From: Candidatus Levyibacteriota bacterium
GTDB lineage: Bacteria; Patescibacteriota; Microgenomatia; Levybacterales; UBA12049
NCBI GenBank assembly: GCA_049519175.1
Contig: JBEKQZ010000002.1
Coordinates: forward strand, 6,782-70,781
Direction of reading: 5' to 3'
DNA length: 64,000 nt
The translations under genes and the position numbers were made by a program. The notes under the pieces are model-generated. The model saw only the letters and a program-made list of their open reading frames with translations. It was not told the DNA's origin and ran no database searches. Below are positions 17,547-54,068 of this stretch, one piece after another (positions within the stretch are counted from its first letter, which is position 1; the number at the start of each line of letters is the position of its first letter).

Positions 17547-17570
17547 TTACTTTAATCCGCCGATGACTTT
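17547..17570 (-). repeat. direct repeat DR1 = the genuine 3' end of mreB (…KVIGGLK*)
   Basis: ttactttaatccgccgatgacttt. The core ccgccgatgacttt is shared with DR3. Confidence 0.6.
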
Positions 17571-39807: not shown

Positions 39808-42600
39808 ATGAATAAAAAAATAATCTTTCTGTCCTTATTTTTTTTACTGGCCGGCTGCCTTTGGAAAATCCCGCAGGCTAAGGCGTCAACTTTTACCGAC
39901 GGCTACATCCGGCTTGACAATCAAACCGCCAACGCTCCCCTCTCCGGCACAATTTGCGCCCAACCATCGTCCGCCGGCGCCGGAACAGAAGCCAAAATCA
40001 GCGTTGCTTTTCCCAGCGACTTTTCTATTTCGGCCAACACGAGCAACTGGACGACCAACGTCAGTGGTCTTCCTGACGGCGCGACCAGTTGGCCAAGCAT
40101 TGGGAGTTCGGCTACCAGCGTATCCGGTCAAACAGTCACGTTTGCCAGCGGCGATTTAACCGCCGACACACTTTACTGTTTTAATTTTACCGGCAGTTCG
40201 TCCACCACAGGAGCGGCTGGAACCAACAAAACCGGCACACTCACCAGTAAAAATGCTTCCAACGCGACCATTGATCAGACGACTTATTATCTGGCAATCC
40301 TGAATAACAACCAAATTGAGGTAACAGCGACGGTTCCGCCGAATGCCACTTATCTGCCAGTTTCGCTTAAATCGACTAACACCGGCAGCAGTTTTCCGCA
40401 AAATACCGTTTTAAACTACAAAATTAATTACGGGCTTTTAAGTATCGGAGCTTTTCCGTTAACCATTCAGGCACAGTGGAACCAAGGAACAATCGCCGGC
40501 AGTCCGGCACCTTCGGTGGACATCGTCAATTATGTCGTCGGCAGCGCTACTAACGGTTACGGCGGAACCGCACCGGTCGTTGACACGGTAGACGGAACAG
40601 TTACCTGGACTTTTACCTCTTTTCCGGGCAACACCACTAACCAAACCGTCGGTTTCCAACTTGAAACTAATAATTCTTATACCGGAAACAGCTCGGTCAG
40701 TTTTACTGTCGCCGCCAGAGCAATGTCTTTGTCCACCGTGACGCCTGATCAAACTGTCACCCAAGATTATTTGTATAGCGGTTCGCTGGCGCCAACACCG
40801 ACACCAACACAAGCGCCGACGCTGACGCCAACGGTTACCGTTACTCCAACTCCGACGCCAACACTCACACCTCAATCTTTTGCGTTTGGCAACGTCAATG
40901 TTTACGCAGTAACGCAATCCCAAGCGCAAATTCGGGTTGTTACCACCCGTAACGCCACTTCGACGATTACTTACGGCACTTCCGCTTCCAAATTAACCCA
41001 AAGTGTTTCTAGCACGACGCCTTTAACCGACGCTGTGCTGACTTTGCCAAATCTGACGCCGGATACGACTTATTATTTTAAGACCACCGCCACCGACAGC
41101 TACGGAAACTTAATTAAGTCGGATATTTTTACCCTTAAAACCGCTGTTGTCTCCGAAGTGGTGCTCGTTGACCCGCAAAGCGTGATTGTCACCAGTAACA
41201 GTAACGTTTTAGTCAATCCTGAAGCGCAAAAAGCCAGCGGGCAACCACAGAAGATTGCGATTGTTGTTCCTCTCTCAACCGATTTTGAAATCCAATTCTC
41301 GCTGGCCAAGCAAATTCCGGTCAAAAGTATTCAGGCAATTGTCAGAAATAAAAATGTCTTGGGCGCTAATACTTTTTCGGTTCCGGTCGCCGAAGCGGCT
41401 TCAAACTATGTTGATTTGGTCGAAACCCAACCGGGAGTTTATACCGGCAGATTAAAGAGCTTGCCCAGTCCCGGTTTTTACGAAATTTATGCGCGCATCG
41501 TCGATTATAATGGTAATATCTACGAGCAGAAAATTTCGGATTTGACTGTCACTTCCCACTTTATGGTCTACGACAAAAGCAATAATCAAGGAGTCGATAA
41601 CGCTAAAGTTTTGCTTTACCTATATAATCCAATAGCCAAAATCTATGACCTAATTTCTCCACTAATCCTGCCGATTCCAAATCCGGCCTATTCCTTAAGC
41701 GACGGCACGGTGCAAATAGTTTTTTCTCCGGCTAAATATAAAGCTGAAGTCTCCGCCATTGGCTATAAGCCGCAAACGATAGAGTTTGAAATTAATCCCC
41801 AGTCAATTTATTATCCGACTGTCTATCTTCAGCCCGAGCCGTTTAATCTAGTCAATTTTGTGCAATACCTCGGTAAAAACTTTACGGATCTCATCTCCTT
41901 AAACCAGCAATACTTAAGCGAAATTTCCGCTTCGAGCAGACTGTTCGTTGTTTTGGAAAGCCTGACGCTTTTGGTGTTTGTCGGTCTAACCTTTTTCTCT
42001 TTTTCCGCCAGAACTCATATTCCCATTCTTTATTTACCTTACTTTTTCATTCACAAGCTAAGACAGCTTTTCTGGAAAAATAATTCTTTGCTTATCGGCA
42101 AAGTTGTCGACACGGTTACACAAAATCCGATTTCCAGAGCAAGAGTAAACCTTATTGATGCCAAGAAAAATAAATTGCTGGCAGAACTAAAAACCAACCG
42201 CCTGGGTGAATTTTATTATAAAAGCGCTAATTTCGAGCATTTGCAGATTACGGTGACAAAAAAAGGCTTCCTCCCCACTCCGACCATGAACTTTATTAAA
42301 GAAAATTTGCAAAAGATGCCACTCGTTTTAAGCGTCGTTAGGGATGAGTCGTACTTGCGGTCGGTGTCGGAACTTATAATTTTAGTCTTGGAAAATGTGA
42401 TTGGTGCTCTCTTAGAGTTTCTGCTTGTTTTTACGATCATTCTTGAACTCTACTTTATTCCCCCGCTTGGCATTTTGCGGATCTTACCATTCTTGTTTTT
42501 GTCTATTTTGAACGTGACACTTCTGATTTTTTACCTTTATAAACCGCGTCACCTGATTTTGAATGCCCCCTCGATTAAACACGGCTTTACGGCTGCTTAG
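39808..42600 (+). CDS. large secreted/membrane-anchored surface protein (930 aa): paralogous N-terminal domain, Thr/Pro linker, carboxypeptidase-regulatory-like domain, C-terminal TM helices
   Basis: It has a signal peptide. The N-terminal ~130 aa (YIRLDNQTANAPLSGTICAQP...TLYCFNFTGSSSTTGAAGT) are clearly homologous to the N-terminus of the 50100 gene product. The linker is TPTPTQAPTLTPTVTVTPTPTPTLTP. The CarboxypepD_reg-like segment is GKVVDTVTQNPISRARVNLID...LGEFYY. Three or four C-terminal TM segments follow. Confidence 0.7.
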   Translation: MNKKIIFLSLFFLLAGCLWKIPQAKASTFTDGYIRLDNQTANAPLSGTICAQPSSAGAGTEAKISVAFPSDFSISANTSNWTTNVSGLPDGATSWPSIGSSATSVSGQTVTFASGDLTADTLYCFNFTGSSSTTGAAGTNKTGTLTSKNASNATIDQTTYYLAILNNNQIEVTATVPPNATYLPVSLKSTNTGSSFPQNTVLNYKINYGLLSIGAFPLTIQAQWNQGTIAGSPAPSVDIVNYVVGSATNGYGGTAPVVDTVDGTVTWTFTSFPGNTTNQTVGFQLETNNSYTGNSSVSFTVAARAMSLSTVTPDQTVTQDYLYSGSLAPTPTPTQAPTLTPTVTVTPTPTPTLTPQSFAFGNVNVYAVTQSQAQIRVVTTRNATSTITYGTSASKLTQSVSSTTPLTDAVLTLPNLTPDTTYYFKTTATDSYGNLIKSDIFTLKTAVVSEVVLVDPQSVIVTSNSNVLVNPEAQKASGQPQKIAIVVPLSTDFEIQFSLAKQIPVKSIQAIVRNKNVLGANTFSVPVAEAASNYVDLVETQPGVYTGRLKSLPSPGFYEIYARIVDYNGNIYEQKISDLTVTSHFMVYDKSNNQGVDNAKVLLYLYNPIAKIYDLISPLILPIPNPAYSLSDGTVQIVFSPAKYKAEVSAIGYKPQTIEFEINPQSIYYPTVYLQPEPFNLVNFVQYLGKNFTDLISLNQQYLSEISASSRLFVVLESLTLLVFVGLTFFSFSARTHIPILYLPYFFIHKLRQLFWKNNSLLIGKVVDTVTQNPISRARVNLIDAKKNKLLAELKTNRLGEFYYKSANFEHLQITVTKKGFLPTPTMNFIKENLQKMPLVLSVVRDESYLRSVSELIILVLENVIGALLEFLLVFTIILELYFIPPLGILRILPFLFLSILNVTLLIFYLYKPRHLILNAPSIKHGFTAA

Positions 42601-42626: not shown

Positions 42627-43622
42627 TCAGTGATACATTACAATAGCGTCTTTATAGATTTTGTCGGAAATTTGCTCAATGGTTTTTGATAAGTCATTAA
42701 AGTCCGGCCCTTTGGTCATAATACACAACAGATATGGACGCTTTGGGTAATAAATTATGCCGCAGTCATGCAGCTGGTGAATTCCGTTGCCCACTTCTCT
42801 TTCACCAAACTTATGCGCAATTGGGATATTTTTGGGCAAATCATCCACCAATCCCTGTTTAAATTCCGCTTGCGCTAAAAGTTCGAGCGCTTGCTCGGAA
42901 TAATCTTTATTTAAATAAGTGGCATAATATAAAACCCTAAACAGCGTTGAATATTCAGACACGTCCATAAAATCATCAGGAGTCGAATTGGTGGCGGTGG
43001 TAATACCCAAATCAAGCGTTACCTGATTAATCTTGCGGCTATCGATGTTATTTTCCAAAAGCGCCAAGGCTGCGTTATCGGAGCCGATAATCATACTTTC
43101 GATTAGCTGCTCAACCGTATAGGTTTGCCCTAAAACAAGCGGATGGCTCGGCGGATAATTTTGCGCGATTACTCCGGAAGGCTCTGCGCTATATTTTATT
43201 TTTTGCTCAAGAATTGCCGGAGCTTCTTCTGCTTCTTTGTAATAAGCCATCATTACCGGCACTTTTAAGAGACTCGACGGCGCAAAAACATCGTGCTCAT
43301 TAATGCCAAACCACGATCCGTTATTCAAGTCACGGTAATAAACCGACACGCTGGTCACCGAATTATTGGTGGTTAATTGATTAATGTAAGTGCTAATGCT
43401 ACTTTTTAATTTGGACAGTTCTTTGGTATCATAGCTTTCACCCGTATTGCATTCGTACAACGGATTAATGAACTGATAACCGCCGGCGTGGAATTCTGAT
43501 GGAATATTTGCAAGATCAGGAAATTGACCGGGCAGTAAATAGCCGATAAAACCGCCAACCGCTAGTCCGAGGATTAAAAATGCCAGACAAAAATAAAACC
43601 ATTTATTTCGGAGAATAAACAT
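42627..43622 (-). CDS. class A beta-lactamase-fold serine hydrolase, membrane-anchored
   Basis: SxxK (APSSLLK), SDN (GSDNAA), and a KTG-like triad HKFG. N-terminal TM. Confidence 0.55.
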   Translation of the reverse strand: MFILRNKWFYFCLAFLILGLAVGGFIGYLLPGQFPDLANIPSEFHAGGYQFINPLYECNTGESYDTKELSKLKSSISTYINQLTTNNSVTSVSVYYRDLNNGSWFGINEHDVFAPSSLLKVPVMMAYYKEAEEAPAILEQKIKYSAEPSGVIAQNYPPSHPLVLGQTYTVEQLIESMIIGSDNAALALLENNIDSRKINQVTLDLGITTATNSTPDDFMDVSEYSTLFRVLYYATYLNKDYSEQALELLAQAEFKQGLVDDLPKNIPIAHKFGEREVGNGIHQLHDCGIIYYPKRPYLLCIMTKGPDFNDLSKTIEQISDKIYKDAIVMYH

Positions 43623-43663
43623 AAATTAAATAGTATCGTAAAGAAAAAACTATTGCAAGAGGC

Positions 43664-46600
43664 TTATTGCGTTGGAGTTGGCGTGATGTTTAGTTGATTA
43701 ATGATTGATTGAAACGCCGCCGAGTCGGTCGCGGTTGGAATTGGCGTGACGTCCAAATTAAGCCCCGAAGTTTGCGCATCCCGCACTGATAATGCTACCC
43801 AGGAGAAACTAATATCTTCCGGCGCCGGTTTATTTAGCTTGATGACAAAACCTGTCGTGGTTCTTTGCGTAACCACGTAGGAAATATTATTATTAAGAAT
43901 TGTATCTTCCAGAGTTTGCTGCGTGGCGCTGTCCCCTGTTTTGTCCATAGCAATGCTGGCGGTGACCACCGGCGTGTTCACATATTCCTGATTGAAATTA
44001 ACTTGCACGCTGTCCAAGCCCTGTTGGATAACCGCAAATCCGGCGGTATCATTATTAAAGGTCGGCGTGGAATCAAAACGGACATTGCCTTTGAAAACCA
44101 CGTCCTGAATAAAGTAAGCAAACTGCGAAACCAAAAGGTTTTGGGTGGTAAGATTATTTAGAACATTCAACGCTCCCTGAATAAGGCCGTTGCCCCCAAC
44201 ATTTAGGTCGGCCGAAATAGTGGCTAAGCCGTCGACATTAAGACTGGTAAGAGTAAGCACTGTTGGAAGCTGTGCCGAACCGGTGGCCAGTTCCGCGCTC
44301 CCCGTCGCGTCCGCCAAAACCGCCGTGTTGTCATTAAGCGGTAGGGTCTGATCGGTGGGAATTTCCAATCCCCCGACTATTTCGTCGGCAATTAGCTTTT
44401 CGACGTGCAAAGTTCCGCTGATGGTGGCATCGCCGGTGTTCAAGCTATTTGAAGTTAATTGTCCGCTGAAACTGGCGTTCCCCTGATTATCAATGGTAGC
44501 AACCGCCAAACCCGAAGCTGAATTGCTATTCAAAACGGACAGCTGATTGCTATTTAGCTTTAAAGCGACATTTGCATTATCGTCTATTGGAACAATCAGA
44601 CTCGTCTGCAAAGTATTAACTGTTGCTAGCGGCGAAATTATAGTTTGACCGTTAGAAAGTGCAAATTGTGAATTCGAAATAGCGCTGGTAACAATACCGG
44701 TAATATAGTCTCTGACATTTTGTCCATTGATGGTGATATTTTCGCTGGCAACGCTTAAAGCATTAGTGGTAATTTGCCCGGCGTTGACAAATCCTACCCG
44801 CAAATTGGCAATCGCCGCGTCGGAAAATTCTCCGACTCGGGCAATCGGATTTCCTAAAGCATCATTTAGCGTAAAGTAATGCGGAATTGTGTAGTTGGTG
44901 TTGCTCGCGGTCTGGTCAACCAGATTCAAATTTCCGCTTGAAGTTAGATAAACCTGCGGATCATACCAAGTGGGATTGACATAAACCTCTATTTCTCCGC
45001 TGGTTCCAGCGTCAACCGCCATTCCGATTACCGGTCCGGCTTTAGTGGCTTTGACGGCAACTCCGGATGTGCTTGAATAAGTTAGATAGTCTCCTGGATT
45101 GATAGCGCCGTTTTGCGAATTTATCTCGGTCCTTAGCTGTCCTAGTAAACCGACGGTTACATAATCAGGGTCATCTTCGTGAGAATCATTTCCTAAAACA
45201 ATGTAAGAATTAGAAATAACGCCGAGTATTTGAGTATTATTGTTGTCGCATTTTATAACTCCACCATTTGTATCAATGCAAACCAAATCTCCCGGATTCA
45301 ACACGTCATTTGCATTTGCTTTTTTAAACCATTCGGCATAATCCCCGCCCGTTGAGCTAAGAGTTACACTGCTTCCGGTGCCCAGAATTTTTCCGATTAT
45401 TGTTCCGTTTCCGGTGGCAAAGTTAATATATCTGTCTGCAGAACCGGGTAATGCTCCGTTATTTGTCCCTAGTCTTAGCGATAAAGCAGTATGACAAGTT
45501 GAGTTGGTACAAGCGGCGTTGCCGGTATTTGGAAAGGCATTCCAAATTTGTGCCGAAGCCGTTGAAGAGCTGGAGCCAATCACCTGAAATTTAATGTTTC
45601 CCGAAGTGGATGCTGAAGCACCAAGCAGTAATTGGTTAGCACCTATGGATACTGTAGATGCCAATCCCGCGAAATTCAAAGTTCCGGTTAATCCGGTATT
45701 GAATAACGCTAACGTTCCTGAGGTTTGGTTTGTAGCAAGGGTTGTACCATTTAGCGTTATTGTTGCCGAAGAAGCTCCTAGAGTTAAGGCTGTTGCCGCC
45801 CCACCATAAGTTATTGTTGTCGGAGTCCCAAATTCCGTCAGCGTTGTAGCAGTTGTGTTTAGTGTATAGCTTGCCCCGGTATTCGGATTTAAACTCAAAG
45901 AGGTTGACGAAGTTAAAGTAGATAGCGAATTAGCCGTTATCGACGCACCGCTCGCGGTAATATTTCCGGTGTTACCTACCGTAAACATAGTCCAGCCGGA
46001 AGCGGAAGCGGTGAACAAATCGCCTACGCCATTATTATTAGCAACCAAAGCGGCAAAGGAAGTTCTACCCGAGACCGAAGCCGCCGGAACGGTTCCGTTC
46101 ATTGCCCGCACATCTAATGTGCTAGCGGGAGTAGTGGTGCCGATACCGACATAACCGGTATTATCCCGGACGGTCATGGCCGTTCCCCAAGTATTGAGTC
46201 CGGATTTATAACCAAAGTTTAAAGTGCCGTTGCCCGGTTCAATGGTGGAGCTGGTAGCTCCTCCAAGGACTAGTGTTGCCGACAAAGAGGCACTGCCGGT
46301 GGGAGCTCCCATGTTTAAGGTAGTAGCAGCTCCACCATAAGTTATTGTTGTCGGAGTCCCAAATTCCGTCAGCGTTGTAGCAGTTGTGTTTAGTGTATAG
46401 CTTGCCCCGGTATTCGGATTTAAACTCAAAGAGGTTGACGAAGTTAAAGTAGATAGCGAATTAGCCGTTATCGACGCACCGCTCATAGTTAGAGTGCTGG
46501 CTATGGTTAGCGCTCCGCCTGAACTCAAAGTATTACTTGAAGAAAAGAATTGGATGTTGCCGGTTGAACCGGAGTTAAGGGTTAAAGTATTTGAGCCGGT

Positions 46601-47806
46601 GTTGGCGAATGACGGATTTGTCCCAAGGTTAATTGTTGCAGCATTAAGATTGATTACTCCTCCGGTGCCATTGTTTGGGGAAAGTGTAATATTGCCGGTG
46701 GTATTACCACCAATGGCTAAGAGTTGATTGTTGGTAGATTGAATTGCACTGGCTGCAAATGCACCGATAGTCAAGCTTCCCGCAACGGAAGCGCTGCCGC
46801 CGTAGCCGTTATTGGGCATTAATACCAATTGCCCGCTGAACGAAGCCTGGGTTTGGTGAGTTGAAGAAGCAAGCCCGGTAAAAGCAAAAACTGCTGACGC
46901 GGTTGATTGTCCACCAATTAAAAGATCCGCGGTTGAATTAATTGGGGTTATATATCCGCCACCGGTGGTTCCATAACCATTAACTAAATTCCAATAGTTG
47001 GTTCCAGTTCCGCCGGTTCCGCAACTTCCCCAAGCTGCAGTAGCGCCACCGACTAGACAATGTGAAGAATCGGAGGTTGTCCCTCCAAGTGAAATTCCTC
47101 CGGACGCAAGAGTAATTCCAGCAAAAGACGGATTAGAACTTAAAACTAAAGTTGTGCCTGTTCCGGTCGTGCTGTTTCCCAATGCTGTTACGGTTCCCGA
47201 GGTTGGCAAAGTAAGCGTGGTTGTTCCTGAAGTTGAAAACGTCAAATTTTGTGTACCCAGATCAACCGTAATTGGGCTTGTCCCGCTCGTTCCAATTCTA
47301 AGCGTTGCAGAAGTAGAACCGGCGGTGCCCGTAGCCGAGTCTTGAACCGTTAAGCCCGCTACCTGCTGGGCGTTAAAGGCAAACGGCACCGCTGTCATTT
47401 GAATTCTCGGCGTCATTTCCGAATCGCTTACCGGTGAAGTAACTTGAATGCCCAAATAAAGTCCATCCCAGTTAAAATTAAAGCTCGTTGGAATTGATGT
47501 TACTGAACCCAACGCCACCCGGAAAATTCCGTCGGTGGTAGTTACTGTTTGCGTTTCCGTCCACAGCGCTGTTCCGCCGCTGGAAACGTTATACAGGCTA
47601 AACACCACTGTGTAGCTTCCGTTGGAAACGTTTAATCCGGTGCTTCCGGCCACGTTGCTGACTAACCTACCTTGAAAGTTGATGGTGCGGTTAATCCCTG
47701 TTGCAGCTAAAACCGGCTTTGTGAAAACCGCAGAGAAGCTTAGCGAAAAAGAGGCTATTGCTAAAATGACTAAAAGTTGTTTAAAATTGAAATGGACAGT
47801 CAACAT
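43664..47806 (-). CDS. giant secreted Gly/Thr/Ser-rich repeat protein (1380 aa); putative adhesin or fibre-like surface protein
   Basis: It has a signal peptide and long low-complexity beta-rich repeats. A ~177-aa unit is duplicated internally. A central domain (GDYAEWF...PGDLVCID) is reminiscent of fibre/tail-fibre-like proteins, but that comparison is weak. Confidence 0.7.
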   Translation of the reverse strand: MLTVHFNFKQLLVILAIASFSLSFSAVFTKPVLAATGINRTINFQGRLVSNVAGSTGLNVSNGSYTVVFSLYNVSSGGTALWTETQTVTTTDGIFRVALGSVTSIPTSFNFNWDGLYLGIQVTSPVSDSEMTPRIQMTAVPFAFNAQQVAGLTVQDSATGTAGSTSATLRIGTSGTSPITVDLGTQNLTFSTSGTTTLTLPTSGTVTALGNSTTGTGTTLVLSSNPSFAGITLASGGISLGGTTSDSSHCLVGGATAAWGSCGTGGTGTNYWNLVNGYGTTGGGYITPINSTADLLIGGQSTASAVFAFTGLASSTHQTQASFSGQLVLMPNNGYGGSASVAGSLTIGAFAASAIQSTNNQLLAIGGNTTGNITLSPNNGTGGVINLNAATINLGTNPSFANTGSNTLTLNSGSTGNIQFFSSSNTLSSGGALTIASTLTMSGASITANSLSTLTSSTSLSLNPNTGASYTLNTTATTLTEFGTPTTITYGGAATTLNMGAPTGSASLSATLVLGGATSSTIEPGNGTLNFGYKSGLNTWGTAMTVRDNTGYVGIGTTTPASTLDVRAMNGTVPAASVSGRTSFAALVANNNGVGDLFTASASGWTMFTVGNTGNITASGASITANSLSTLTSSTSLSLNPNTGASYTLNTTATTLTEFGTPTTITYGGAATALTLGASSATITLNGTTLATNQTSGTLALFNTGLTGTLNFAGLASTVSIGANQLLLGASASTSGNIKFQVIGSSSSTASAQIWNAFPNTGNAACTNSTCHTALSLRLGTNNGALPGSADRYINFATGNGTIIGKILGTGSSVTLSSTGGDYAEWFKKANANDVLNPGDLVCIDTNGGVIKCDNNNTQILGVISNSYIVLGNDSHEDDPDYVTVGLLGQLRTEINSQNGAINPGDYLTYSSTSGVAVKATKAGPVIGMAVDAGTSGEIEVYVNPTWYDPQVYLTSSGNLNLVDQTASNTNYTIPHYFTLNDALGNPIARVGEFSDAAIANLRVGFVNAGQITTNALSVASENITINGQNVRDYITGIVTSAISNSQFALSNGQTIISPLATVNTLQTSLIVPIDDNANVALKLNSNQLSVLNSNSASGLAVATIDNQGNASFSGQLTSNSLNTGDATISGTLHVEKLIADEIVGGLEIPTDQTLPLNDNTAVLADATGSAELATGSAQLPTVLTLTSLNVDGLATISADLNVGGNGLIQGALNVLNNLTTQNLLVSQFAYFIQDVVFKGNVRFDSTPTFNNDTAGFAVIQQGLDSVQVNFNQEYVNTPVVTASIAMDKTGDSATQQTLEDTILNNNISYVVTQRTTTGFVIKLNKPAPEDISFSWVALSVRDAQTSGLNLDVTPIPTATDSAAFQSIINQLNITPTPTQ
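45800..45953. repeat. 154-bp perfect internal direct repeat, copy 1, inside the giant gene
   Basis: It is identical to 46331-46484. The flanks are diverged but alignable, so this is a 531-bp (177-codon) in-frame tandem duplication. Confidence 0.9.
46331..46484. repeat. 154-bp perfect internal direct repeat, copy 2
   Basis: See copy 1. Confidence 0.9.
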
Positions 47807-47864
47807 TTAATTAATATTACTACGTAATATTAATTACACCAAGTATACAGCCACGGGTCAAGTC

Positions 47865-47895
47865 TTGACAAAGCTTGTATACTTGTGCATATAAT
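47865..47895 (+). promoter_or_regulatory. promoter candidate (TTGACA ... TATAAT, spacer ~19)
   Basis: TTGACAaagcttgtatacttgtgcaTATAAT lies upstream of 47913. The spacer is long, so confidence is low. Confidence 0.3.
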
Positions 47896-47912
47896 TATAT
47901 ATAATTGCATAT

Positions 47913-48191
47913 ATGGAAAATCTTTTGAACATCCGACAAGTTGCTTTTATTTTAAAAGTTCATCCGTTAACCGTTCGCCGTTATATTAAGGACGGTCGCT
48001 TAAAAGCGGTTAGAGTTGGCGGCAACGTCCGGATTAAAGAATCGCAGTTGTTGGACTTTAATAAAGATTTCTCTTCTGCCCCATCGAAAAAGCAAGTTGT
48101 GAAAAATAGCCTTAAACCGGCCAAAGTCTTTACCTTGGATGATCCGATTTTTCGGTTGAGAGGCAAAGGCGCAAGTCTTACCCTAAGTTAA
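47913..48191 (+). CDS. excisionase-family HTH DNA-binding protein (92 aa)
   Basis: LLNIRQVAFILKVHPLTVRRYIKDGRLKAVRVGGNVRIKESQL is paralogous to the 37453 product. Confidence 0.7.
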   Translation: MENLLNIRQVAFILKVHPLTVRRYIKDGRLKAVRVGGNVRIKESQLLDFNKDFSSAPSKKQVVKNSLKPAKVFTLDDPIFRLRGKGASLTLS

Positions 48192-48193
48192 GA

Positions 48194-48285
48194 GGGGTGG
48201 TGCGATTGGAAGGGCTCCCGACAGCGCGCAAGCCAGTGAGTCGTGAGTGAGCACTGGCGGGAGGGAAAAATCGCGACAGGACCCC
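48194..48285 (+). ncRNA. structured repeat family 1, copy B
   Basis: GGGGUGGUGCGAUUGGAAGGGCUCCCGACAGCGCGCAAGCCAGUGAGUCGUGAGUGAGCACUGGCGGGAGGGAAAAAUCGCGACAGGACCCC. Four nested helices: P1 GGGGU/ACCCC, P2 GCGAUU/AAUCGC, P3 CUCCCG/CGGGAG, P4 CCAGUG/CACUGG. Confidence 0.6.
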
Positions 48286-48302
48286 ACCAAAGGGAATTAT
48301 TT

Positions 48303-48722
48303 ATGATTAGTAAGAAAGTTTACATTGAACCAAGCGGATTTTTTGCTTTTATTGACAGAGCCAATCCTAAGTATGAGCAAGCCGCGGCCTATTTTCGCTA
48401 TTTTGCGCAGGAAGGATACGCACTTTTCACAGATTACCAAACCATTACTGAAAGTTATAACCATATTTACCGGGAGATCAGCCCATCGTTGGCCAAAGAT
48501 TTTTTGCGCACGGTTTTTTTAAGCGACATCAACATTATCTATCCGGAAGAACGAGATATTAAGGCGGCTTTAAAAACGTTGGTGAACTTTCAATCGACAG
48601 AATTAACTTTCTCGAAAGCAATTAAAGCGGTTTTAGCCAACCGCAGAGGTATCGGGCAGGTTTTTACTTTTGAATATTTACATCCGTTGTTTGGCCAGAA
48701 CACATTTTATTTGCCAATCTAA
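48303..48722 (+). CDS. hypothetical protein, possible degenerate PIN-like domain (139 aa)
   Basis: The track ORF starts at 48243 inside the repeat, so the likely start is the Met at 48303 (MISKKVYIEPSGFFAFID...). Acidic residues are spaced like a PIN domain, but the first Asp is replaced by Glu. The call is weak. Confidence 0.4.
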   Translation: MISKKVYIEPSGFFAFIDRANPKYEQAAAYFRYFAQEGYALFTDYQTITESYNHIYREISPSLAKDFLRTVFLSDINIIYPEERDIKAALKTLVNFQSTELTFSKAIKAVLANRRGIGQVFTFEYLHPLFGQNTFYLPI

Positions 48723-48740
48723 AACAAGGATTAAGGATTA

Positions 48741-50036
48741 ATGATTAAAGAATTAAGAAAAATAACAAAAGGAGGCAATTCACTTTTAAACGAATCGAAA
48801 GTCGTCAAGATTAACGTTGATTTTATGTCTAAATTGCTAAAAAGACTTTCGTTAAGCGAGCAAAGGCTAGGTAATTCTTACCAAGAACTGAAGCGAGCGA
48901 CGTTTGAAAAGTGTGATTGCCGACTGTTGTTGAAAAGATTTTCGTTAGCAACGATATTATTTTCTATAGCAATTTTGAGCCTATTTTTTGCACCACGGGC
49001 GCTTGCCGGACCGACCAGCACCACCTACCAAGTGGTTGACTATGGTTTTGGCGCCGGCGGAATTGCTACTACTTCGGGCGCCAGCAACAAATATATGCTA
49101 CAAGGAATTGCCGGAGAATTGGAATTTGCCAGTCCGAGCTCTTCTAACTATATGGCTTGGCCGGGTTTAACTTATACCGAACAACCGGCTGTCCCGTCAG
49201 CGCCGACTTTTACCAACCCTTCCAACTACTATAACAAACTGCATATTACTATAAATCAAGGCAGTGAACTATCTGATACTGTATACGCCATTTCTATCTC
49301 AACTGATAATTTTGCTAGCAACATTAAATATGTTCAAGCCGACGAAACTGTCGCGTCGGTGGCAGTTTGGCAGTCTTACGGAACATCCGGCGGCTCCCCA
49401 ACTGCCTGGCACGGTTCCGACGGAATTGATATTATTGGTTTAACTCCCGGCACTACTTATTACGCCAGAATAGTTGCCGGACGAGGAACTTTTACGCAAG
49501 GCGTTCCCGGTCCGACGGTTTCGGCGGCCACTGTTAATCCAAAATTAACTTACTCTTTAACCACTACCCGTTTTAGCGCTCCACCTTATGTGGTTGTCAT
49601 TAATAATATTGACCCCGGCGGCGCGGTTAAAACTTCCGACGACCAAATTACCGCCAACATTTCCACCAACGGCGCTAATGGCGGATCAATTTTGGTTTCC
49701 AGCGCCAACGGAGCATTGGTTAGCACCAGCGTTCCGGGAAATCCGATTACCAGCGCCACCAACAATTTAGATAGCGTTTCACAAGGATATGGCGCACAAG
49801 GAGTAAGCGTTTCGCAAAGTTCCGGCGGACCACTGGCGCTAGTTTCACCATACAATACTACTACCGGCAATAATGTGGGAATTCTTGATACCAATAAACG
49901 GGTTTTTGCCAGCTCGACCGTTCCTGTTACCAACGGTTCGGCAACTTTTGTTTTAAAAGCTAAAGTCGCCGCCGGCTCCAGTCCGGCAACCGACTACACT
50001 GATAAATTAATTATTTTGGCCAACGGCGCATTTTAG
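48741..50036 (+). CDS. secreted surface protein, paralogue family A (C-terminal motif ...PATDYTDKLIILANGAF*)
   Basis: The signal-peptide-like segment is at aa ~66-88, so the start may be the downstream TTG at ~48927. An FN3-like strand is TPGTTYYARIVAGRG. The C-terminal 17 aa are nearly identical to the C-terminus of the next gene. Confidence 0.65.
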   Translation: MIKELRKITKGGNSLLNESKVVKINVDFMSKLLKRLSLSEQRLGNSYQELKRATFEKCDCRLLLKRFSLATILFSIAILSLFFAPRALAGPTSTTYQVVDYGFGAGGIATTSGASNKYMLQGIAGELEFASPSSSNYMAWPGLTYTEQPAVPSAPTFTNPSNYYNKLHITINQGSELSDTVYAISISTDNFASNIKYVQADETVASVAVWQSYGTSGGSPTAWHGSDGIDIIGLTPGTTYYARIVAGRGTFTQGVPGPTVSAATVNPKLTYSLTTTRFSAPPYVVVINNIDPGGAVKTSDDQITANISTNGANGGSILVSSANGALVSTSVPGNPITSATNNLDSVSQGYGAQGVSVSQSSGGPLALVSPYNTTTGNNVGILDTNKRVFASSTVPVTNGSATFVLKAKVAAGSSPATDYTDKLIILANGAF

Positions 50037-50099
50037 ATAAAATGGCCTATTGACAAAAGTTTTAAAAAATGTTTTGCTTAATTATAGCAATAACTATTT

Positions 50100-51224
50100 A
50101 TGGATTTATCCAAATTCAGAATAAATAAAGATCCTAAAGCTGCCTTAAGTATTCTTCTGCAGTTGTCTCTCCTTCTAGTCAGTGTTTCCTACGCTTTACT
50201 TTATCCGCCAAAAGCTAACGCGGCGACATTTGTCACGCTTAGACTAGACCGGCAATATGCCAGCGTAGCACTAGCCGGAGTAGCTTGTATTAAACCAACC
50301 GCCGCCAGTCAATCCGACACCAAAGTGATTATTACTTTTCCTTCAACTTTTACGCTTGATACAACAGTCGCCAATTGGTCGGTTGATACCACTGCCACCA
50401 ACTTACCTAGCACCACTACCGGCGATGCTTTTACCGCTACCGCTTGGACGGGCATTTCTGCCAAACCAATGCTGGTTGACAATTCCACCAAAGCCGCCAT
50501 TTTTACCAGCACCCAATTAACTTCATCTTCTAACTATTATTGTTTCCATTTTAACGGCGGCGCCAGTTCGAATGTCGGAGCGGCGGGCAATGACGAATAT
50601 GGATATATCCAAACCTGGAAATCACCTGGAGTAAATGTCGAAAACGATCAGTATGCGGTTTCTATTGTCAGCGGCACCAACGGTGAGCAAATCGAAATTA
50701 AAGCCACTGTCTCTGCCGCCTTTACTTTTTCTTTGTCCGGCGGAGCCGGAGCTGGAGCCACCGCTGCTGCATCATTACCGCTTGGTATTATTTCGGCCAG
50801 CACCGTCACGACAGCTCCGTATACTGCAACAGCCACTATTTCGACCAACGGCACGAACGGGTTCTTAGCTTGGATTAAAGACGGCAACGCTGCCTTATAT
50901 TCAAACACCACCGGGCAAAATATACCTACTGTAGCTTACAATGGCGGTTCGCCAACGACGCTTACAAACGGCAGTAACGGTTATGGTGTTTGGGCAGCCA
51001 CCGGAACAAATTCTCCAACTATTGCTACGATGTATAATACCGGGCAAACAGGAACATCAGTTGGCGCAATTAGTGATACTGCTTTTTCGCTGATTGCCAG
51101 TAAAACCGGCGCTTATTCGGGAGAGACATTTCTTTTTGGCGTCCGTGCTGCGCCTGCCTACACAATTACGCCTGCCACCGACTATACCGACGTTTTAACC
51201 GTCGTTGCATCCGGCTCTTTCTAA
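50100..51224 (+). CDS. secreted surface protein, paralogue family A (C-terminal ...PATDYTDVLTVVASGSF*); its N-domain is homologous to that of the 39808 product
   Basis: It has a signal peptide, the shared N-terminal domain, and the shared C-terminal beta-strand-like motif ending in Phe. Confidence 0.7.
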   Translation: MDLSKFRINKDPKAALSILLQLSLLLVSVSYALLYPPKANAATFVTLRLDRQYASVALAGVACIKPTAASQSDTKVIITFPSTFTLDTTVANWSVDTTATNLPSTTTGDAFTATAWTGISAKPMLVDNSTKAAIFTSTQLTSSSNYYCFHFNGGASSNVGAAGNDEYGYIQTWKSPGVNVENDQYAVSIVSGTNGEQIEIKATVSAAFTFSLSGGAGAGATAAASLPLGIISASTVTTAPYTATATISTNGTNGFLAWIKDGNAALYSNTTGQNIPTVAYNGGSPTTLTNGSNGYGVWAATGTNSPTIATMYNTGQTGTSVGAISDTAFSLIASKTGAYSGETFLFGVRAAPAYTITPATDYTDVLTVVASGSF

Positions 51225-52272
51225 CATGAACCATGGCAAAAAATTATTGCTTCTGCCAATACTCTTCGTTTTGGCGATTTTATTTTTGCCGGTAAAAACT
51301 TTTGCCCAAACCCCCGGCGGTTATGATGTCACAGTCTCCCCCATTTTCTTTGATTTATCTACCACTCCGGGGGGTAATGTGTCTGGCACCATTAAGATTA
51401 GAAACAATACCGCCTATCCTTTACCGCTTAAATTGGGAGTGCAAAGATTAACCGGAGATTTAAGTGGTAATTACAGTTTAAAAGCCGACAAGAATGATGA
51501 AACACTGTCCTGGGTTAGTTTCTCCCAGCCCACCTTTGTCGCCAACCCTCTGGAGTGGACCCAAATTCCCTTCACCATCAATGTTCCCAAAGATGTAGCT
51601 TATGGTTACTACTGGACCATTACCTTTGCCCAGGATACTACCAATCCTCTCTTCAAAAGCGGAGTCAGTTTAACCGGCGCCGCCGGAGTGCCAATCCTGT
51701 TGAACGTACTAAAGCCCGGGGAGAAAGCCGACGCCAAAATCACTCAATTTAGCGTCGGGCAATTTGTCAATGAATATTTGCCGATTAACTTTACGGTTAA
51801 AATTGAAAATTTAGGTAACATCCACGTTCAGCCCCACGGCAGCATTTTCATTAGTGACGGCCGTAACAAAGATTTGGCGGTTTTGGATGTCAATCCGGGG
51901 CTTGGCAACGTTATTCCGCAGTCTGCCCGGATTTTCAACGCTTCCTGGGACGACGGATTTTTAGAAATGGAGCCGGTCACGCAGTTTGGTCAGCCAAAAC
52001 TGGATAAAAACGGCAAACCGTTGGAGACTTTACAGATTAACTGGGATAAATTAACCGAGTTTAGAATCGGTCGCTACACCGCCAATCTGGTGATGGTTTA
52101 TGACAATGGCAAAGTCGATGTCCCGCTGGAATCAACCATTACTTTTTGGGTTTTGCCTTGGAAAGCGATGGGCGTAATTCTGATTTCGCTAATCGTGATT
52201 TTCCTGGTCGGCAGATTCTTGATTAGAACTTACATTAAACGCGAAATCGCCAAAAGAACCAGAGCCGCTTAG
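51205..52272 (+). CDS. secreted protein with a C-terminal TM anchor and basic tail, paralogue family B (DUF916/DUF3324-like architecture)
   Basis: It has a signal peptide and two beta-rich domains. The C-terminus VLPWKAMGVILISLIVIFLVGRFLIRTYIKREIAKRTRAA is a TM helix plus a Lys/Arg tail. The architecture is shared with 52945-53877. Confidence 0.7.
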   Translation: MHPALSNMNHGKKLLLLPILFVLAILFLPVKTFAQTPGGYDVTVSPIFFDLSTTPGGNVSGTIKIRNNTAYPLPLKLGVQRLTGDLSGNYSLKADKNDETLSWVSFSQPTFVANPLEWTQIPFTINVPKDVAYGYYWTITFAQDTTNPLFKSGVSLTGAAGVPILLNVLKPGEKADAKITQFSVGQFVNEYLPINFTVKIENLGNIHVQPHGSIFISDGRNKDLAVLDVNPGLGNVIPQSARIFNASWDDGFLEMEPVTQFGQPKLDKNGKPLETLQINWDKLTEFRIGRYTANLVMVYDNGKVDVPLESTITFWVLPWKAMGVILISLIVIFLVGRFLIRTYIKREIAKRTRAA

Positions 52273-52868
52273 TCCGCAAATTTAATTGTGGGAATTAATA
52301 AATTGAATAAATCGTTTTCCGCCTGCTGGTCCGGACTTTCGAAAACAAAAGTATAGATTTTTCCGTTGAGCAAAAAGAAAACCGTTTTTTCGTAGCCGGC
52401 TGTCATATCATATTTTGAGAACTCTAAACCCTGCTGGTTATCGACGGAGACTGTAGTTTGCGTGTAAGTGGTCGTATCTTCCCACCTTAAGCGTACACCG
52501 GAATAATCACTTAGTGTCTGCGCGCTGGGATAAGCTATCACTTCACTAAAAAAATGCGTGTGCGAATCGCTTAAATCAAAACCAAAATGTTCCAAATCAT
52601 TATACTGATACGGCTGTCCATTAGTGTATAAAATGAACGCTTTTGCCGCCTTCGGATAAAGAAACGACACGTATTTACCCTGGTGCAAGACGTTTCCGGT
52701 AATTACCGGCGCCGCTTTCAGCACCACTTGCCTGCCCAAAATATTTTCTAAAGCCTGTTGCTTTTGGGCCGCGGTTAACGTTGCCTGCGGGCGGTTAAGA
52801 ATAAGAAAAGCAGCTACAAACAGCCCGAGAATCACTAGGAGAAACACTGATAATATTATCTTCTTCAT
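52269..52868 (-). CDS. hypothetical membrane-anchored protein
   Basis: The track ORF extends to 52895, but the likely start is MKKIILSVFLLVILGLFVAAF at 52868. N-terminal TM. Confidence 0.5.
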   Translation of the reverse strand: MKKIILSVFLLVILGLFVAAFLILNRPQATLTAAQKQQALENILGRQVVLKAAPVITGNVLHQGKYVSFLYPKAAKAFILYTNGQPYQYNDLEHFGFDLSDSHTHFFSEVIAYPSAQTLSDYSGVRLRWEDTTTYTQTTVSVDNQQGLEFSKYDMTAGYEKTVFFLLNGKIYTFVFESPDQQAENDLFNLLIPTIKFAD

Positions 52869-52891
52869 GAATTTATGATACCATAAAATAG

Positions 52892-52975
52892 GCAAATTTC
52901 TAATTCTTAATTTTTAATTTCTAAACAAATCCAAATGTCAAAAAATGAAAATTAAAAATCGCAAATTAAAAATCG
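52892..52975. repeat. AT-rich intergenic repeat family 3 copy (includes a tandem AAATTAAAAATCGC x2)
   Basis: Matches 18642-18748. Confidence 0.45.
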
Positions 52976-53877
52976 CAGTATTCTTAATACTTACTACTGG
53001 CTACTTAGTACTTGCTACTGGCAAAGCGCTTGCCCAAACACAAAAAGGGATTACGGTTGAGCCCTCGATTATGCACATTGATCTTTCCACCGACCAGCCG
53101 GAATATGATTTAACCTATATCAACAGCACCAATTACGCCGTCGGGCTAACCATAAGCGTCCAGGATTTTTCGGCGCTTAGCGACACTTATCAAATTGATT
53201 ATCTTTCGCCTGCCGATGCCGCCAACTACAAATATTCGCTGTCATCTTGGCTGACATTTGAAAATAAAAATTTTGATTTAAATCCCGGCGAAAAAAAGAG
53301 CATCAAAGTTTACATCGATAAAACCAGAATCACCAAAGGCGGCCATTACGCCGCTATTTTGGCCGAAATCGGCGCCCCCAACGGCGGACAAAATTCTAAC
53401 GTCAAAGCGGTTCTTTCCAGCTTGTTGTTTGTGCGTGCCGACACCGGACAGGAAATTGAAGACGGCAAAATCGTCACTTTTGAGCCCAACCGCGACTGGC
53501 TGGAATTTCCGGACAGCTTTATCGTGCGTTTCCAAAACAACGGCAACGTCCACGTCATTCCTTATGGCTTGATTAAAATTTACGACCCGCTGAATAATCT
53601 TGTTACCCAGGGCACTTTTAATATGGACTCTTTGGACGCCTTGCCAGAAAGTATCCGCCGCTACGATACCGATATTGAAGTTTACCAAAAAGTGCTTCTG
53701 CCGGGAACTTACACGGCCAAAATTGCTCTGCATTTTGGCGACACCAACCGAAAAACTTCCGCCACGGTCCAGTTTTATTCCGAAGGAATGTTTGATTTCC
53801 CCAAAATCGGCCTGGGACTGATTATAATTTTGTTAGTGAGCCTTTACCTCCGCAAAAAACTGTCCAAAAAATCTTAA
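52945..53877 (+). CDS. secreted protein with a C-terminal TM anchor, paralogue family B
   Basis: It has a signal peptide. The C-terminus IGLGLIIILLVSLYLRKKLSKKS is a TM helix with a basic tail. The two-domain beta architecture matches the 51205 product. Confidence 0.7.
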   Translation: MKIKNRKLKIAVFLILTTGYLVLATGKALAQTQKGITVEPSIMHIDLSTDQPEYDLTYINSTNYAVGLTISVQDFSALSDTYQIDYLSPADAANYKYSLSSWLTFENKNFDLNPGEKKSIKVYIDKTRITKGGHYAAILAEIGAPNGGQNSNVKAVLSSLLFVRADTGQEIEDGKIVTFEPNRDWLEFPDSFIVRFQNNGNVHVIPYGLIKIYDPLNNLVTQGTFNMDSLDALPESIRRYDTDIEVYQKVLLPGTYTAKIALHFGDTNRKTSATVQFYSEGMFDFPKIGLGLIIILLVSLYLRKKLSKKS

Positions 53878-53885
53878 ACAAGCGC

Positions 53886-53909
53886 AGTGAGCTTGCAAAA
53901 TTTTCGCTG
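53886..53909 (+). repeat. partial copy (24 nt) of repeat family 2, abutting family 1 copy C
   Basis: agtgagcttgcaaaattttcgctg matches the 5' arm of the 157-nt elements at 56248 and 61727. Confidence 0.5.
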
Positions 53910-53913
53910 ATAA

Positions 53914-54004
53914 GGGGTGGCAGGAGTGGAAAGGCTCCCGACAGCGCGCAGATCAGTGAGTCGTGAATGAGCACTGGCGGGAGGGAAACTCCTGACAGGA
54001 CCCC
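53914..54004 (+). ncRNA. structured repeat family 1, copy C
   Basis: GGGGUGGCAGGAGUGGAAAGGCUCCCGACAGCGCGCAGAUCAGUGAGUCGUGAAUGAGCACUGGCGGGAGGGAAACUCCUGACAGGACCCC. P2 is CAGGAG/CUCCUG, a full compensatory change against copy B. Confidence 0.6.
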
Positions 54005-54068
54005 GAAATGATAACAAATTCCGTGAAAAGTTGCATTTCACAAAACTATATGAGTATGATATAGTTGG

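What the first reader, a model, noticed from the sequence alone, without database searches (positions are those of the whole stretch)
45800..46484. Recent 531-bp in-frame tandem duplication (154 bp still 100% identical) inside the 1380-aa repeat-protein gene
Two perfect 154-bp copies lie exactly 531 bp (177 codons) apart, with diverged but alignable flanks. They duplicate the segment …GASITANSLSTLTSSTSLSLNPNTGASYTLNTTATTLTEFGTPTTITYGGAAT…. Perfect identity over 154 bp inside a coding repeat implies either a very recent duplication or ongoing gene conversion. It also provides a substrate for copy-number (length) variation of a surface fibre, meaning possible antigenic or length phase variation. 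It is an assembly hazard as well.
Basis: seen in the sequence. Interest (0 to 1): 0.55.

Follow-up and report, generated by a model that had tools for sequence, protein, structure and literature searches.

The report
Perfect internal repeat in fibre gene
A giant surface-fibre gene of an uncultured Levybacteria-group bacterium holds two identical 153-base stretches flanking one protein module; they are best read as recent copy-correction of an old repeat, they break short-read assemblies, and some public contigs lack the 531 bases between them. This is an ordinary kind of feature for repeat-rich surface proteins.

Summary
The repeat is real. Two perfect 153-bp copies (not 154), at 45801-45953 and 46332-46484, lie 531 bp (177 codons) apart, in frame, inside the 1380-aa ORF 43664-47806 (-). 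That ORF is NCBI MGA2911617.1 from a Candidatus Levyibacteriota MAG.

It is not a 531-bp tandem duplication. The layout is R-X-R, and the 378-bp module X between the copies is single-copy. The flank on the gene's 5' side is non-homologous. The 3' flank is only anciently similar.

Comparison with a 56%-identical homologue shows that both junctions (R|X and R|Z) predate the split of the two lineages. Yet the R copies are near-identical within each genome. This points to gene conversion rather than a fresh duplication.

Patchy 98-100% DNA repeats recur in two homologues checked at DNA level. 20 of 122 family proteins carry exact internal repeats of 30 aa or more.

Four contigs from three independent assemblies end inside R. 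Two other contigs carry a precise 531-bp in-frame deletion (a 1203-aa protein). This is either a real length polymorphism or an assembly collapse; reads are needed to decide. The deletion cannot be reversed, so it is not phase variation.

The protein resembles a phage-type fibre (phi29 gp12 autochaperone-like and H-lectin-like folds). The finding is an ordinary kind in a new lineage.

The parts
43664..47806 (-). Gene for a 1380-aa secreted, fibre-like protein (NCBI MGA2911617.1, locus tag ABSE17_03210, Candidatus Levyibacteriota MAG). It has an N-terminal hydrophobic signal/anchor, a G/S/T/N-rich stalk, and C-terminal folded domains.
   Evidence: ORF and translation; exact match to cluster member P0121; composition.
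46332..46484 (-). R copy A, the gene-proximal copy: 153 bp, aa 441-492.
45801..45953 (-). R copy B, the gene-distal copy: 153 bp, 100% identical to copy A, aa 618-669.
45954..46331 (-). Module X: 378 bp of single-copy sequence between the two R copies. It encodes the protein's only canonical family module (…GYVGIGTTTPASTLDV…ASVSGRTSFAALVANNNGVGDLFTASASGWTMFTVGNTGNITA). X plus one R copy is the 531 bp absent from the one-copy contigs.
   Evidence: Alignment; self-comparison; contigs L002 and L008; module seen repeated in homologues.
45773..45800 (-). 28-nt extension on the 3' side of copy B, 82% identical to 46304-46331. This is the graded end of the identity tract.
   Evidence: Family D1, 181 nt at 95%; alignment.
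46304..46331 (-). 28-nt extension on the 3' side of copy A, the partner of 45773-45800.
44960..45349 (-). Confidently modelled domain (aa ~820-949, containing GGDYAEWF). Its fold resembles the C-terminal autochaperone fragment of phage phi29 gp12.
   Evidence: AF2 pLDDT about 90 over model residues 61-190; Foldseek hits 3suc and 3gqh_A, E = 2e-5, TMt 0.57.
43793..44008 (-). C-terminal domain resembling an H-type lectin (aa 1267-1338).
   Evidence: Pfam PF09458, E = 0.0036, 17.8 bits, below the 24-bit cut-off; Foldseek hits to Helix agglutinins, E = 4e-3, TMt 0.53.

Best explanation
The two 153-bp copies (R) are the ends of two old paralogous stalk segments in a modular surface-fibre gene. They have recently been made identical by intragenic gene conversion, that is, non-reciprocal homologous recombination.

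The conversion tract stops sharply on the gene's 5' side, where homology ends: Y-type sequence lies upstream of copy A and X-type sequence upstream of copy B. It fades on the 3' side into the anciently related starts of modules X and Z.

The same direct repeat is a substrate for homologous recombination or replication slippage. Either would delete exactly 531 bp (one R plus X, 177 codons) in frame, giving a 1203-aa fibre that lacks module X.

Shown: the anatomy of the repeat; the synonymous-site identity; that both junctions are old; concerted similarity within genomes; recurrent patchy repeats in the family; contig breaks at R; and the existence of precise-deletion contigs.

Inferred: the conversion mechanism itself; that the deletion contigs reflect real cells; and any effect on fibre length or binding.
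For: (1) Identity is bimodal. It is 153/153 in R, 82% over the next 28 nt, and then near-random at DNA level. All 51 codons in R are identical, against 7 of 20 in the adjacent homologous flank and about 50% in orthologue comparisons.

(2) Test for concerted evolution against homologue P0002/L003. In the last 60 nt of R, paralogues match 56/60 (window) and 55/60 (L003), while orthologues match only 41-45/60. In the 66 nt just after the junction the pattern reverses: orthologues match 45/66 (X start) and 49/66 (Z start), while paralogues match 22-28/66. Both junctions therefore predate the lineage split, and R has been homogenised within each genome.

(3) The same mosaic appears elsewhere in the family. 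L014 has three ~870-nt units that are 100% identical over 600-780 nt and 50-70% identical over the rest. L017 has dispersed repeats of 281-300 nt at 98-99%. 20 of 122 family proteins have exact internal repeats of 30 aa or more.

(4) The two-copy layout is independently assembled. L001 (JGI 3300044904) and L005 (JGI 3300051094) both carry X with R on each side, at 100% identity to the window.

(5) Deletion products exist. L002 (JGI 3300009760) and L008 (JGI 3300038423, whole gene, P0122 = window protein minus aa 442-618) join copy A's upstream flank to copy B's downstream flank through a single R.
Against: - No reads were available, so conversion was not observed directly.
- The concerted-evolution test rests on one homologue with DNA and on short segments (60 and 66 nt).
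- In this highly modular family, independent recombination that re-created similar junctions cannot be excluded.
- R also contains 36 aa that P0002, P0004 and P0011 lack, so part of R is lineage-specific. A recent partial re-duplication would look similar.
- Bubble-merging in short-read assemblers could have erased a few real differences between the copies, so the 100% figure may be slightly overstated.
- Both one-copy contigs are short (2.5 and 6.4 kb) and come from fragmentary assemblies. There, tip-clipping of the 378-bp loop could mimic a deletion.
Confidence: 0.6

Rival explanations
1. Recent partial, non-tandem duplication or module-shuffling event. A segment of about 180-290 bp ending at the TYGGAAT junction was newly copied and joined to the end of module X. 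This might have happened by deleting a second Y segment from a P0002-like Y-R-X-Y-R-Z ancestor that was itself recently duplicated. The copies have simply not had time to diverge.
For: - The 5' boundary is sharp, as expected of a non-homologous junction.
- The X|R junction (…GNITA|SGASITANSL…) is absent from P0002 and P0004, where X is followed by a Y segment.
- R contains 36 lineage-specific aa in both copies.
- The family shows frequent module duplication.
Against: - The 3' boundary is graded, not sharp.
- Both R|X and R|Z junctions are shared with a 56%-identical homologue, so two R-type segments already existed.
- P0002's own two copies are also more alike (55/60) than the orthologues are. 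That is the expectation for repeated homogenisation rather than a single fresh event.
Confidence: 0.25
2. Assembly artefact. Either the two-copy layout (or the perfect identity) comes from short-read de Bruijn assembly, through a mis-resolved loop or merged bubbles, or the one-copy contigs are collapses and no biological length variation exists.
For: - R (153 bp) is longer than the largest usual k (127 or 141) and about the length of a read.
- Four contigs break inside R, retaining 79, 105, 127 and 141 nt of it.
- The one-copy contigs are short and come from samples whose other contigs from this locus are also short (L011, 2.6 kb).
Against: - X is flanked by R on both sides in three assemblies from different samples (window, L001, L005), which requires two R copies in the genome.
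- The 207-kb source contig reads through the region.
- A homologue on contigs with 'contig_N' names (assembler unknown to me) shows even longer perfect repeats.
- A collapse of a two-copy genome would lack read-pair support in a paired-end-aware assembler (inference).
Confidence: 0.1
3. The identity is kept by selection on the peptide, or by a diversity-generating retroelement or another programmed variation system that uses R as a template/variable repeat pair.
For: The gene encodes a surface protein of a CPR bacterium, a group in which programmed variation systems are known (my own knowledge).
Against: - Synonymous sites are identical at all 51 codons, against about 35-50% elsewhere, which rules out peptide-level selection alone.
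- The five mismatches just past R are of mixed types (A/G, T/G, T/A) and are not adenine-specific.
- No reverse transcriptase or mobile-element gene was found among the neighbours or the large ORFs of the window that I scanned.
Confidence: 0.02

Closest known systems
Periscope proteins: surface proteins such as Rib/Alpha C, SasG and Aap, whose highly identical tandem DNA repeats expand and contract (review PMC9704523)
   Same: - A secreted, fibre-like surface protein.
- DNA-level identity between internal repeats, beyond what the protein sequence would require.
- Homologous recombination between repeats as the proposed route to shorter variants.
- The repeats confound short-read assembly.
   Different: - This is not an array. 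There are only two copies of a 153-bp block separated by a unique module, about 1.3 'units'.
- The change can only be a one-way loss of X, not expansion and contraction.
- Repeat-number variation is not proven here.
- No rod-like repeat fold could be modelled (pLDDT 52).
- Some family members (L014) do look more like a true array.
Concerted evolution by intragenic or interparalogue gene conversion, a general phenomenon in repeated coding modules (my own knowledge)
   Same: Paralogous segments are more alike within a genome than orthologous segments are between genomes, while the flanking junctions follow orthology. The identity tracts are patchy.
   Different: The evidence covers only one pair of lineages and short segments. 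No conversion event was observed directly.
Phage tail-fibre and tailspike proteins with a C-terminal intramolecular chaperone (phi29 gp12 appendage; Pfam PF11962 Peptidase_G2)
   Same: - A domain at aa ~820-949 matches the phi29 gp12 C-terminal fragment by fold (E = 2e-5, TMt 0.57).
- The C-terminal region matches lectin and receptor-binding folds of pyocin and tailspike tips.
- The protein has a long G/S/T/N-rich stalk.
   Different: - The gene is chromosomal, among housekeeping genes, and the product has an N-terminal signal/anchor.
- My hmmscan gave no PF11962 hit at E <= 1.
- No PHROG hit and no PDB sequence hit.
- The gp12-like domain is internal, not terminal.
- Autocleavage is untested.

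Membership tests
Simple recent tandem duplication of a 531-bp unit | The whole unit is present twice, head to tail, with roughly uniform identity. | tested here: not met
   Only 153 bp are identical. The 378 bp between the copies have no second copy, and the flanks on the gene's 5' side are unrelated.
Simple recent tandem duplication of a 531-bp unit | The layout is absent from diverged relatives, i.e. it is lineage-specific and young. | tested here: not met
   The R|X and R|Z junctions are both present in P0002/L003 (56% identity), with orthologous flanks (45/66 and 49/66 nt).
Gene conversion / concerted evolution of paralogous segments | Paralogues within a genome are more similar than orthologues between genomes, while the flanks follow orthology. 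| tested here: met
   56/60 and 55/60 within genomes against 41-45/60 between genomes. The pattern reverses in the flanks. Only one comparison lineage was available.
Gene conversion / concerted evolution of paralogous segments | Identity includes synonymous sites and has a mosaic, tract-like distribution. | tested here: met
   51/51 codons identical in R against 7/20 in the neighbouring flank. The same mosaic is seen in L014.
Periscope proteins | A stalk built from a tandem array of highly identical repeats. | tested here: not met
   There are two copies of a 51-aa block around a unique module. TRF and the repeat finder report no array.
Periscope proteins | Repeat number varies between closely related strains or within populations. 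| tested here: inconclusive
   Two-copy contigs (window, L001, L005) and one-copy contigs (L002, L008) exist at 99.98% identity or better. Assembly collapse cannot be excluded without reads.
Periscope proteins | Attached to the cell surface. | tested here: inconclusive
   An N-terminal hydrophobic signal/anchor is visible in the translation. No anchoring motif or domain was detected.
phi29 gp12-type fibre with intramolecular chaperone (PF11962) | Sequence match to PF11962 at or above Pfam's threshold. | tested here: not met
   hmmscan at E <= 1 returned only H_lectin. Only a 'faint' precomputed hit is on record.
phi29 gp12-type fibre with intramolecular chaperone (PF11962) | gp12 C-terminal autochaperone fold. 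| tested here: met
   Foldseek hits 3suc and 3gqh_A, E = 2e-5, TMt 0.57, on a pLDDT ~90 domain.
phi29 gp12-type fibre with intramolecular chaperone (PF11962) | Trimerisation and autoproteolytic release of the chaperone. | not testable with these tools
   This needs biochemistry.
H-type lectin domain (PF09458) | Pfam gathering score reached. | tested here: not met
   17.8 bits against a 24-bit cut-off. The fold-level resemblance is only E = 4e-3, TMt 0.53.
Diversity-generating retroelement target | A nearby reverse transcriptase and a template/variable repeat pair that differ at adenines. | tested here: not met
   There are no differences within R, and the flanking mismatches are of mixed type. 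No reverse transcriptase was found among the neighbours or large ORFs I scanned.

The most novel reading that the evidence does not exclude
Natural Levybacteria populations carry a real polymorphism in fibre length and module content, with 1380-aa and 1203-aa alleles. It would arise by recombination between repeats that gene conversion keeps identical. The whole family of giant Patescibacteria fibres would then diversify its stalk by this patchy conversion-and-deletion process. That would be a CPR counterpart of Periscope proteins, acting on a phage-fibre-like adhesin that may mediate attachment to host cells.
Probability: 0.3. Interest if true: 0.45.

Novelty: new member of a known kind. Interest (0 to 1): 0.28.

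Why it matters
In practical terms, the repeat is a proven break and collapse point for short-read assemblies of this organism. The gene's length in any MAG (1380 or 1203 aa) should not be trusted without read support.

In biological terms, it adds a CPR/Patescibacteria example to the well-known theme of surface proteins whose internal repeats are homogenised and recombine. If the deletion allele is real, it would show strain-level variation, in the environment, of a probable attachment fibre in a group whose host-interaction molecules are poorly known. It does not open a new mechanism.

Tried and rejected
- **Pattern scans.** An exact 45-nt pattern from R gave no hits in genome contigs or in metagenome contigs. 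Those collections evidently lack the relevant samples.
- **Search for relatives in species-representative genomes.** The search for related loci on genome contigs found only two distant partial matches (33-36% identity over the gp12-like domain), in a Planctomycetota MAG and an unnamed MAG. No orthologue was available there for counting units.
- **Exact look-ups.** Look-ups of the full protein, of P0121 and of the GTG-start 159-aa neighbour found nothing on record.
- **Structure of the repeat region.** The AlphaFold model of aa 300-800 had pLDDT 52.5 and pTM 0.28 and was not interpretable. I therefore cannot say whether R+X is a structural unit.
- **Database scans of the fibre protein.** PHROGs, NCBIfam and PDB sequence searches gave nothing.
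- **TRF.** It cannot see the repeat, because the period of 531 exceeds its 500 limit.
- **blastp self-hit.** It needed a masking workaround.
- **Readings rejected.** A DGR, peptide-level selection and chance are rejected (see the rival explanations).
- **Search not run.** I considered a protein search with module X to look for 'loop' contigs in the one-copy samples. Gene fragments cut at contig ends appear not to be in that collection: the L005 and L006 fragments were not returned. I therefore did not spend the search.
Full report
**1. The observation**

The repeat finder reports one strong direct-repeat family in 44000-49500: 181 nt at 95% identity with spacing 531. A base-by-base scan at offset 531 gives a single perfect run, 45801-45953 = 46332-46484. 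It is 153 bp long, and the neighbouring bases differ on both sides. So the run is 153 bp, not 154.

Both copies lie in the 1380-aa ORF 43664-47806 on the minus strand, at aa 441-492 and 618-669. They share the same codon phase, so the 531-bp offset equals 177 codons. No third copy exists in the window. TRF misses the repeat because its period limit is 500. The core observation is confirmed.

**2. Anatomy: R-X-R, not a tandem duplication**

I aligned the two putative 531-bp units. In gene orientation, identity starts abruptly at R and is perfect for 153 nt. It is then 82% for 28 nt and decays to near-random.

At protein level the repeated region is aa 439-531 against 616-712, at 71% identity over 97 aligned residues. 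Upstream of R the two contexts are unrelated (z = -0.5 against shuffles). Downstream they are weakly but significantly related (z = 4.4; 0 of 500 shuffles reach the score).

The 378 bp between the copies (module X, 45954-46331) has no second copy. A 531-bp tandem duplication would require two complete units, and that is not what is there.

Within R all 51 codons are identical. In the adjacent homologous flank only 7 of 20 identical amino acids share a codon. In conserved parts of an orthologue comparison the figure is 50%. The identity is therefore a recent DNA-level event and not peptide conservation.

**3. What the gene is**

The protein is identical to NCBI MGA2911617.1, a hypothetical protein of a Candidatus Levyibacteriota MAG (207-kb contig).

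The surrounding genes are chromosomal housekeeping genes:
- PRPP synthetase, LytR_C and a class-A beta-lactamase-family protein;
- ribosomal proteins L1, L10, L11 and L7/L12;
- topoisomerase I, PBP2 and two MreB paralogues.

No reverse transcriptase or mobile element was seen.

The N-terminus (MLTVHFNFKQLLVILAIASFSLSFSAVFTKPVLAA…) looks like a signal peptide or membrane anchor. Residues ~40-800 are G/S/T/N-rich and contain almost no charged residues.

Database searches say little. Pfam gives only a sub-threshold H_lectin hit at the C-terminus. PHROGs, NCBIfam and PDB sequence searches give nothing.

An AlphaFold model of aa 760-1380 has two confident domains. They match the phi29 gp12 C-terminal autochaperone fragment (E = 2e-5, TMt 0.57) and H-type lectins, pyocin-fibre tips and tailspike receptor-binding domains (E ~ 4e-3 to 1e-2). 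The model of the repeat region (aa 300-800) was not usable (pLDDT 52).

'Surface fibre' is therefore a reasonable description: a phage-fibre-like architecture in a cellular gene. It is not a demonstrated member of any curated family.

**4. Homologues and the age of the layout**

About 200 homologues were found, all unnamed or 'hypothetical', mostly from Patescibacteria and Levybacteria MAGs. The N-terminal ~160 aa and the C-terminal ~300 aa are conserved, while the stalk is a variable mosaic of modules. The syntenic orthologue in L004 (P0007, 1291 aa) lacks R altogether.

In P0002 (56% identity) the order is Y-R'-X-Y-R'-Z. In the window it is Y-R-X-R-Z. Both proteins have the same two junctions: …TPTTITYGGAAT|(T/I)LN(M/L)GAPTG… (R|X) and …TYGGA(A/T)T|ALTLG… (R|Z).

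The DNA comparison is decisive:

| Segment | Paralogues within a genome | Orthologues between genomes |
|---|---|---|
| Last 60 nt of R | 56/60 (window), 55/60 (L003) | 41-45/60 |
| 66 nt after the junction | 22-28/66 | 45/66 (X start), 49/66 (Z start) |

Hence both junctions existed before the two lineages split, and R has been homogenised separately in each genome. This is the classic signature of concerted evolution by gene conversion.

The sharp 5' edge of the tract coincides with the end of homology. The graded 3' edge runs into old homology.

A recent partial re-duplication remains possible. The X|R junction and 36 aa of R are lineage-specific. I rate this reading lower than conversion.

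**5. The family habit**

20 of 122 family proteins carry exact internal repeats of 30 aa or more, up to 273 aa.

- In L014 (P0024), three ~870-nt units are 100% identical over 600-780 nt but only 50-70% identical in the remaining part of the same units.
- L017 (P0026) has dispersed repeats of 281-300 nt at 98-99%.
- L003 has 198 nt at 88%.

The window's repeat is thus a modest example of a recurrent process in this family.

**6. Evidence from independent assemblies**

Exact-protein look-ups retrieved contigs of the same population from other samples.

| Contig | Source | What it shows |
|---|---|---|
| L001 | JGI 3300044904, 2.8 kb | Starts at 46410, inside copy A; runs through X and copy B at 100% identity |
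| L005 | JGI 3300051094, 52 kb | Starts at 46436, inside copy A; also runs through X and copy B |
| L009 | JGI 3300051094, 107.5 kb | Ends at 46358, having entered copy A by exactly 127 nt from the upstream side |
| L006 | ENA ERZ27250144, MEGAHIT 'k141' name, 51.8 kb | Starts at 45941, retaining exactly 141 nt of copy B |
| L002 | JGI 3300009760, 2.5 kb | Copy A's upstream flank joined through one R to copy B's downstream flank; 100% identical on both sides |
| L008 | JGI 3300038423, 6.4 kb | Whole gene plus both neighbours, with the same precise 531-bp deletion and one SNP in 4.1 kb; product P0122 (1203 aa) = window protein minus aa 442-618 |

Three conclusions follow.
- The assembly hazard is demonstrated by L001, L005, L009 and L006.
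- The two-copy layout is independently supported by L001 and L005. X flanked by R on both sides requires two R copies in the genome.
- A precise deletion form exists in public data.

Whether the deletion form is biological cannot be settled without reads. A paired-end-aware assembler should not jump from A-left to Z in a two-copy genome. However, both one-copy contigs come from fragmentary assemblies, in which a coverage gap in the 378-bp loop followed by tip clipping could produce exactly this collapse. I put the chance that the deletion allele is real at roughly 55%.

**7. Mechanism and consequences**

A 153-bp perfect direct repeat is well above the homology length that bacterial homologous recombination needs (established knowledge; not tested here). 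Recombination or slippage between the copies removes one R plus X, in frame.

X carries the protein's only copy of the canonical family module (…GYVGIGTTTP…LDV…SFAALVANNNGVGDLFTASASG…), which other members have in many copies. The deletion allele therefore loses a module rather than shortening a uniform array. It also cannot revert, because X is gone. This is at most a one-way length and content polymorphism, not phase variation.

**8. Comparison with known systems**

The closest concept is the Periscope protein class: surface stalks made of highly identical tandem repeats whose number varies by recombination (PMC9704523). This gene works in a similar way but fails the defining 'array' feature.

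The protein's C-terminal domains resemble phage fibre and tailspike modules by fold only.

A DGR, peptide-level selection and chance are rejected.

**9. Verdict**

It is wrong in calling the feature a recent 531-bp tandem duplication and in suggesting phase variation.

The best explanation is gene-conversion homogenisation of an old paralogous segment in a modular fibre gene (confidence ~0.6). This is an ordinary kind of feature in a little-studied lineage. Interest: 0.28.

Noticed in passing
window 47886-47913: A 10-nt unit, TGCATATAAT, is repeated 2.8 times in the short divergent intergenic region between the fibre gene start (47806, -) and the excisionase-like HTH gene (47913, +). It looks like reiterated -10-like boxes. 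A promoter-like site for the fibre gene lies at 47871-47842.
   Followed up: no
window 47913-52272 (+); syntenic in L004 5816-9895 and L009 1556-5915: A conserved gene cluster lies divergent from the fibre gene. It encodes a 92-aa excisionase-family HTH protein (TIGR01764, E = 3.6e-10) followed by four proteins of 159, 431, 374 and 355 aa with no Pfam or NCBIfam match. In the syntenic locus L004, one counterpart has a weak WxLIP_PGBD hit. The cluster may be a partner or assembly system for the fibre.
   Followed up: partly
P0002 (L003 696-6428), P0024 (L014 3001-9765), P0027: Some homologous fibres carry about 200 extra N-terminal residues with two integrase SAM-like domains (PF02899, PF13102, PF13495), followed by a hydrophobic segment and then the fibre. 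JGI consequently named one of them 'site-specific recombinase XerD'. This is an odd fusion of a DNA-binding-type domain to a surface fibre.
   Followed up: no
window 43598-43625: Public contigs L001 and L002, from different samples, both end within 30 bp of each other at the boundary between the fibre gene and the beta-lactamase-family gene. This may be a second assembly break point or a strain-variation boundary. No repeat was identified there.
   Followed up: no
window 44960-45349 (aa ~820-949 of the fibre): The phi29 gp12 autochaperone-like domain (GGDYAEWF motif, pLDDT ~90) sits in the middle of the protein, about 430 aa before the C-terminus, rather than at the end as in phage appendages. 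If it self-cleaves, the lectin-like C-terminal part would be released.
   Followed up: partly
window 17547-18638 (-) and 59161-60180 (-): Two full-length MreB/Mbl paralogues lie in one 64-kb stretch of a Levybacteria genome.
   Followed up: no
window 39808-42600 (+) and 54069-56213 (+): Other large, probably surface-exposed proteins lie close by. One is a 930-aa protein with a weak CarboxypepD_reg-like hit, conserved in synteny next to the fibre in L004 and L005. The other is a 714-aa protein with SBBP beta-propeller repeats, fn3 and LysM. The region seems enriched in envelope and surface genes.
   Followed up: no
L009 vs window 51596-54138; L011 vs window 47068-49651; L008 vs window 42803: Contigs of the same population from other samples differ from the window by a few SNPs: 5 in 7.8 kb, 7 plus one indel in 2.6 kb, and 1 in 4.1 kb. 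Closely related strains therefore co-occur across samples, which bears on whether the one-copy allele is strain-specific.
   Followed up: partly
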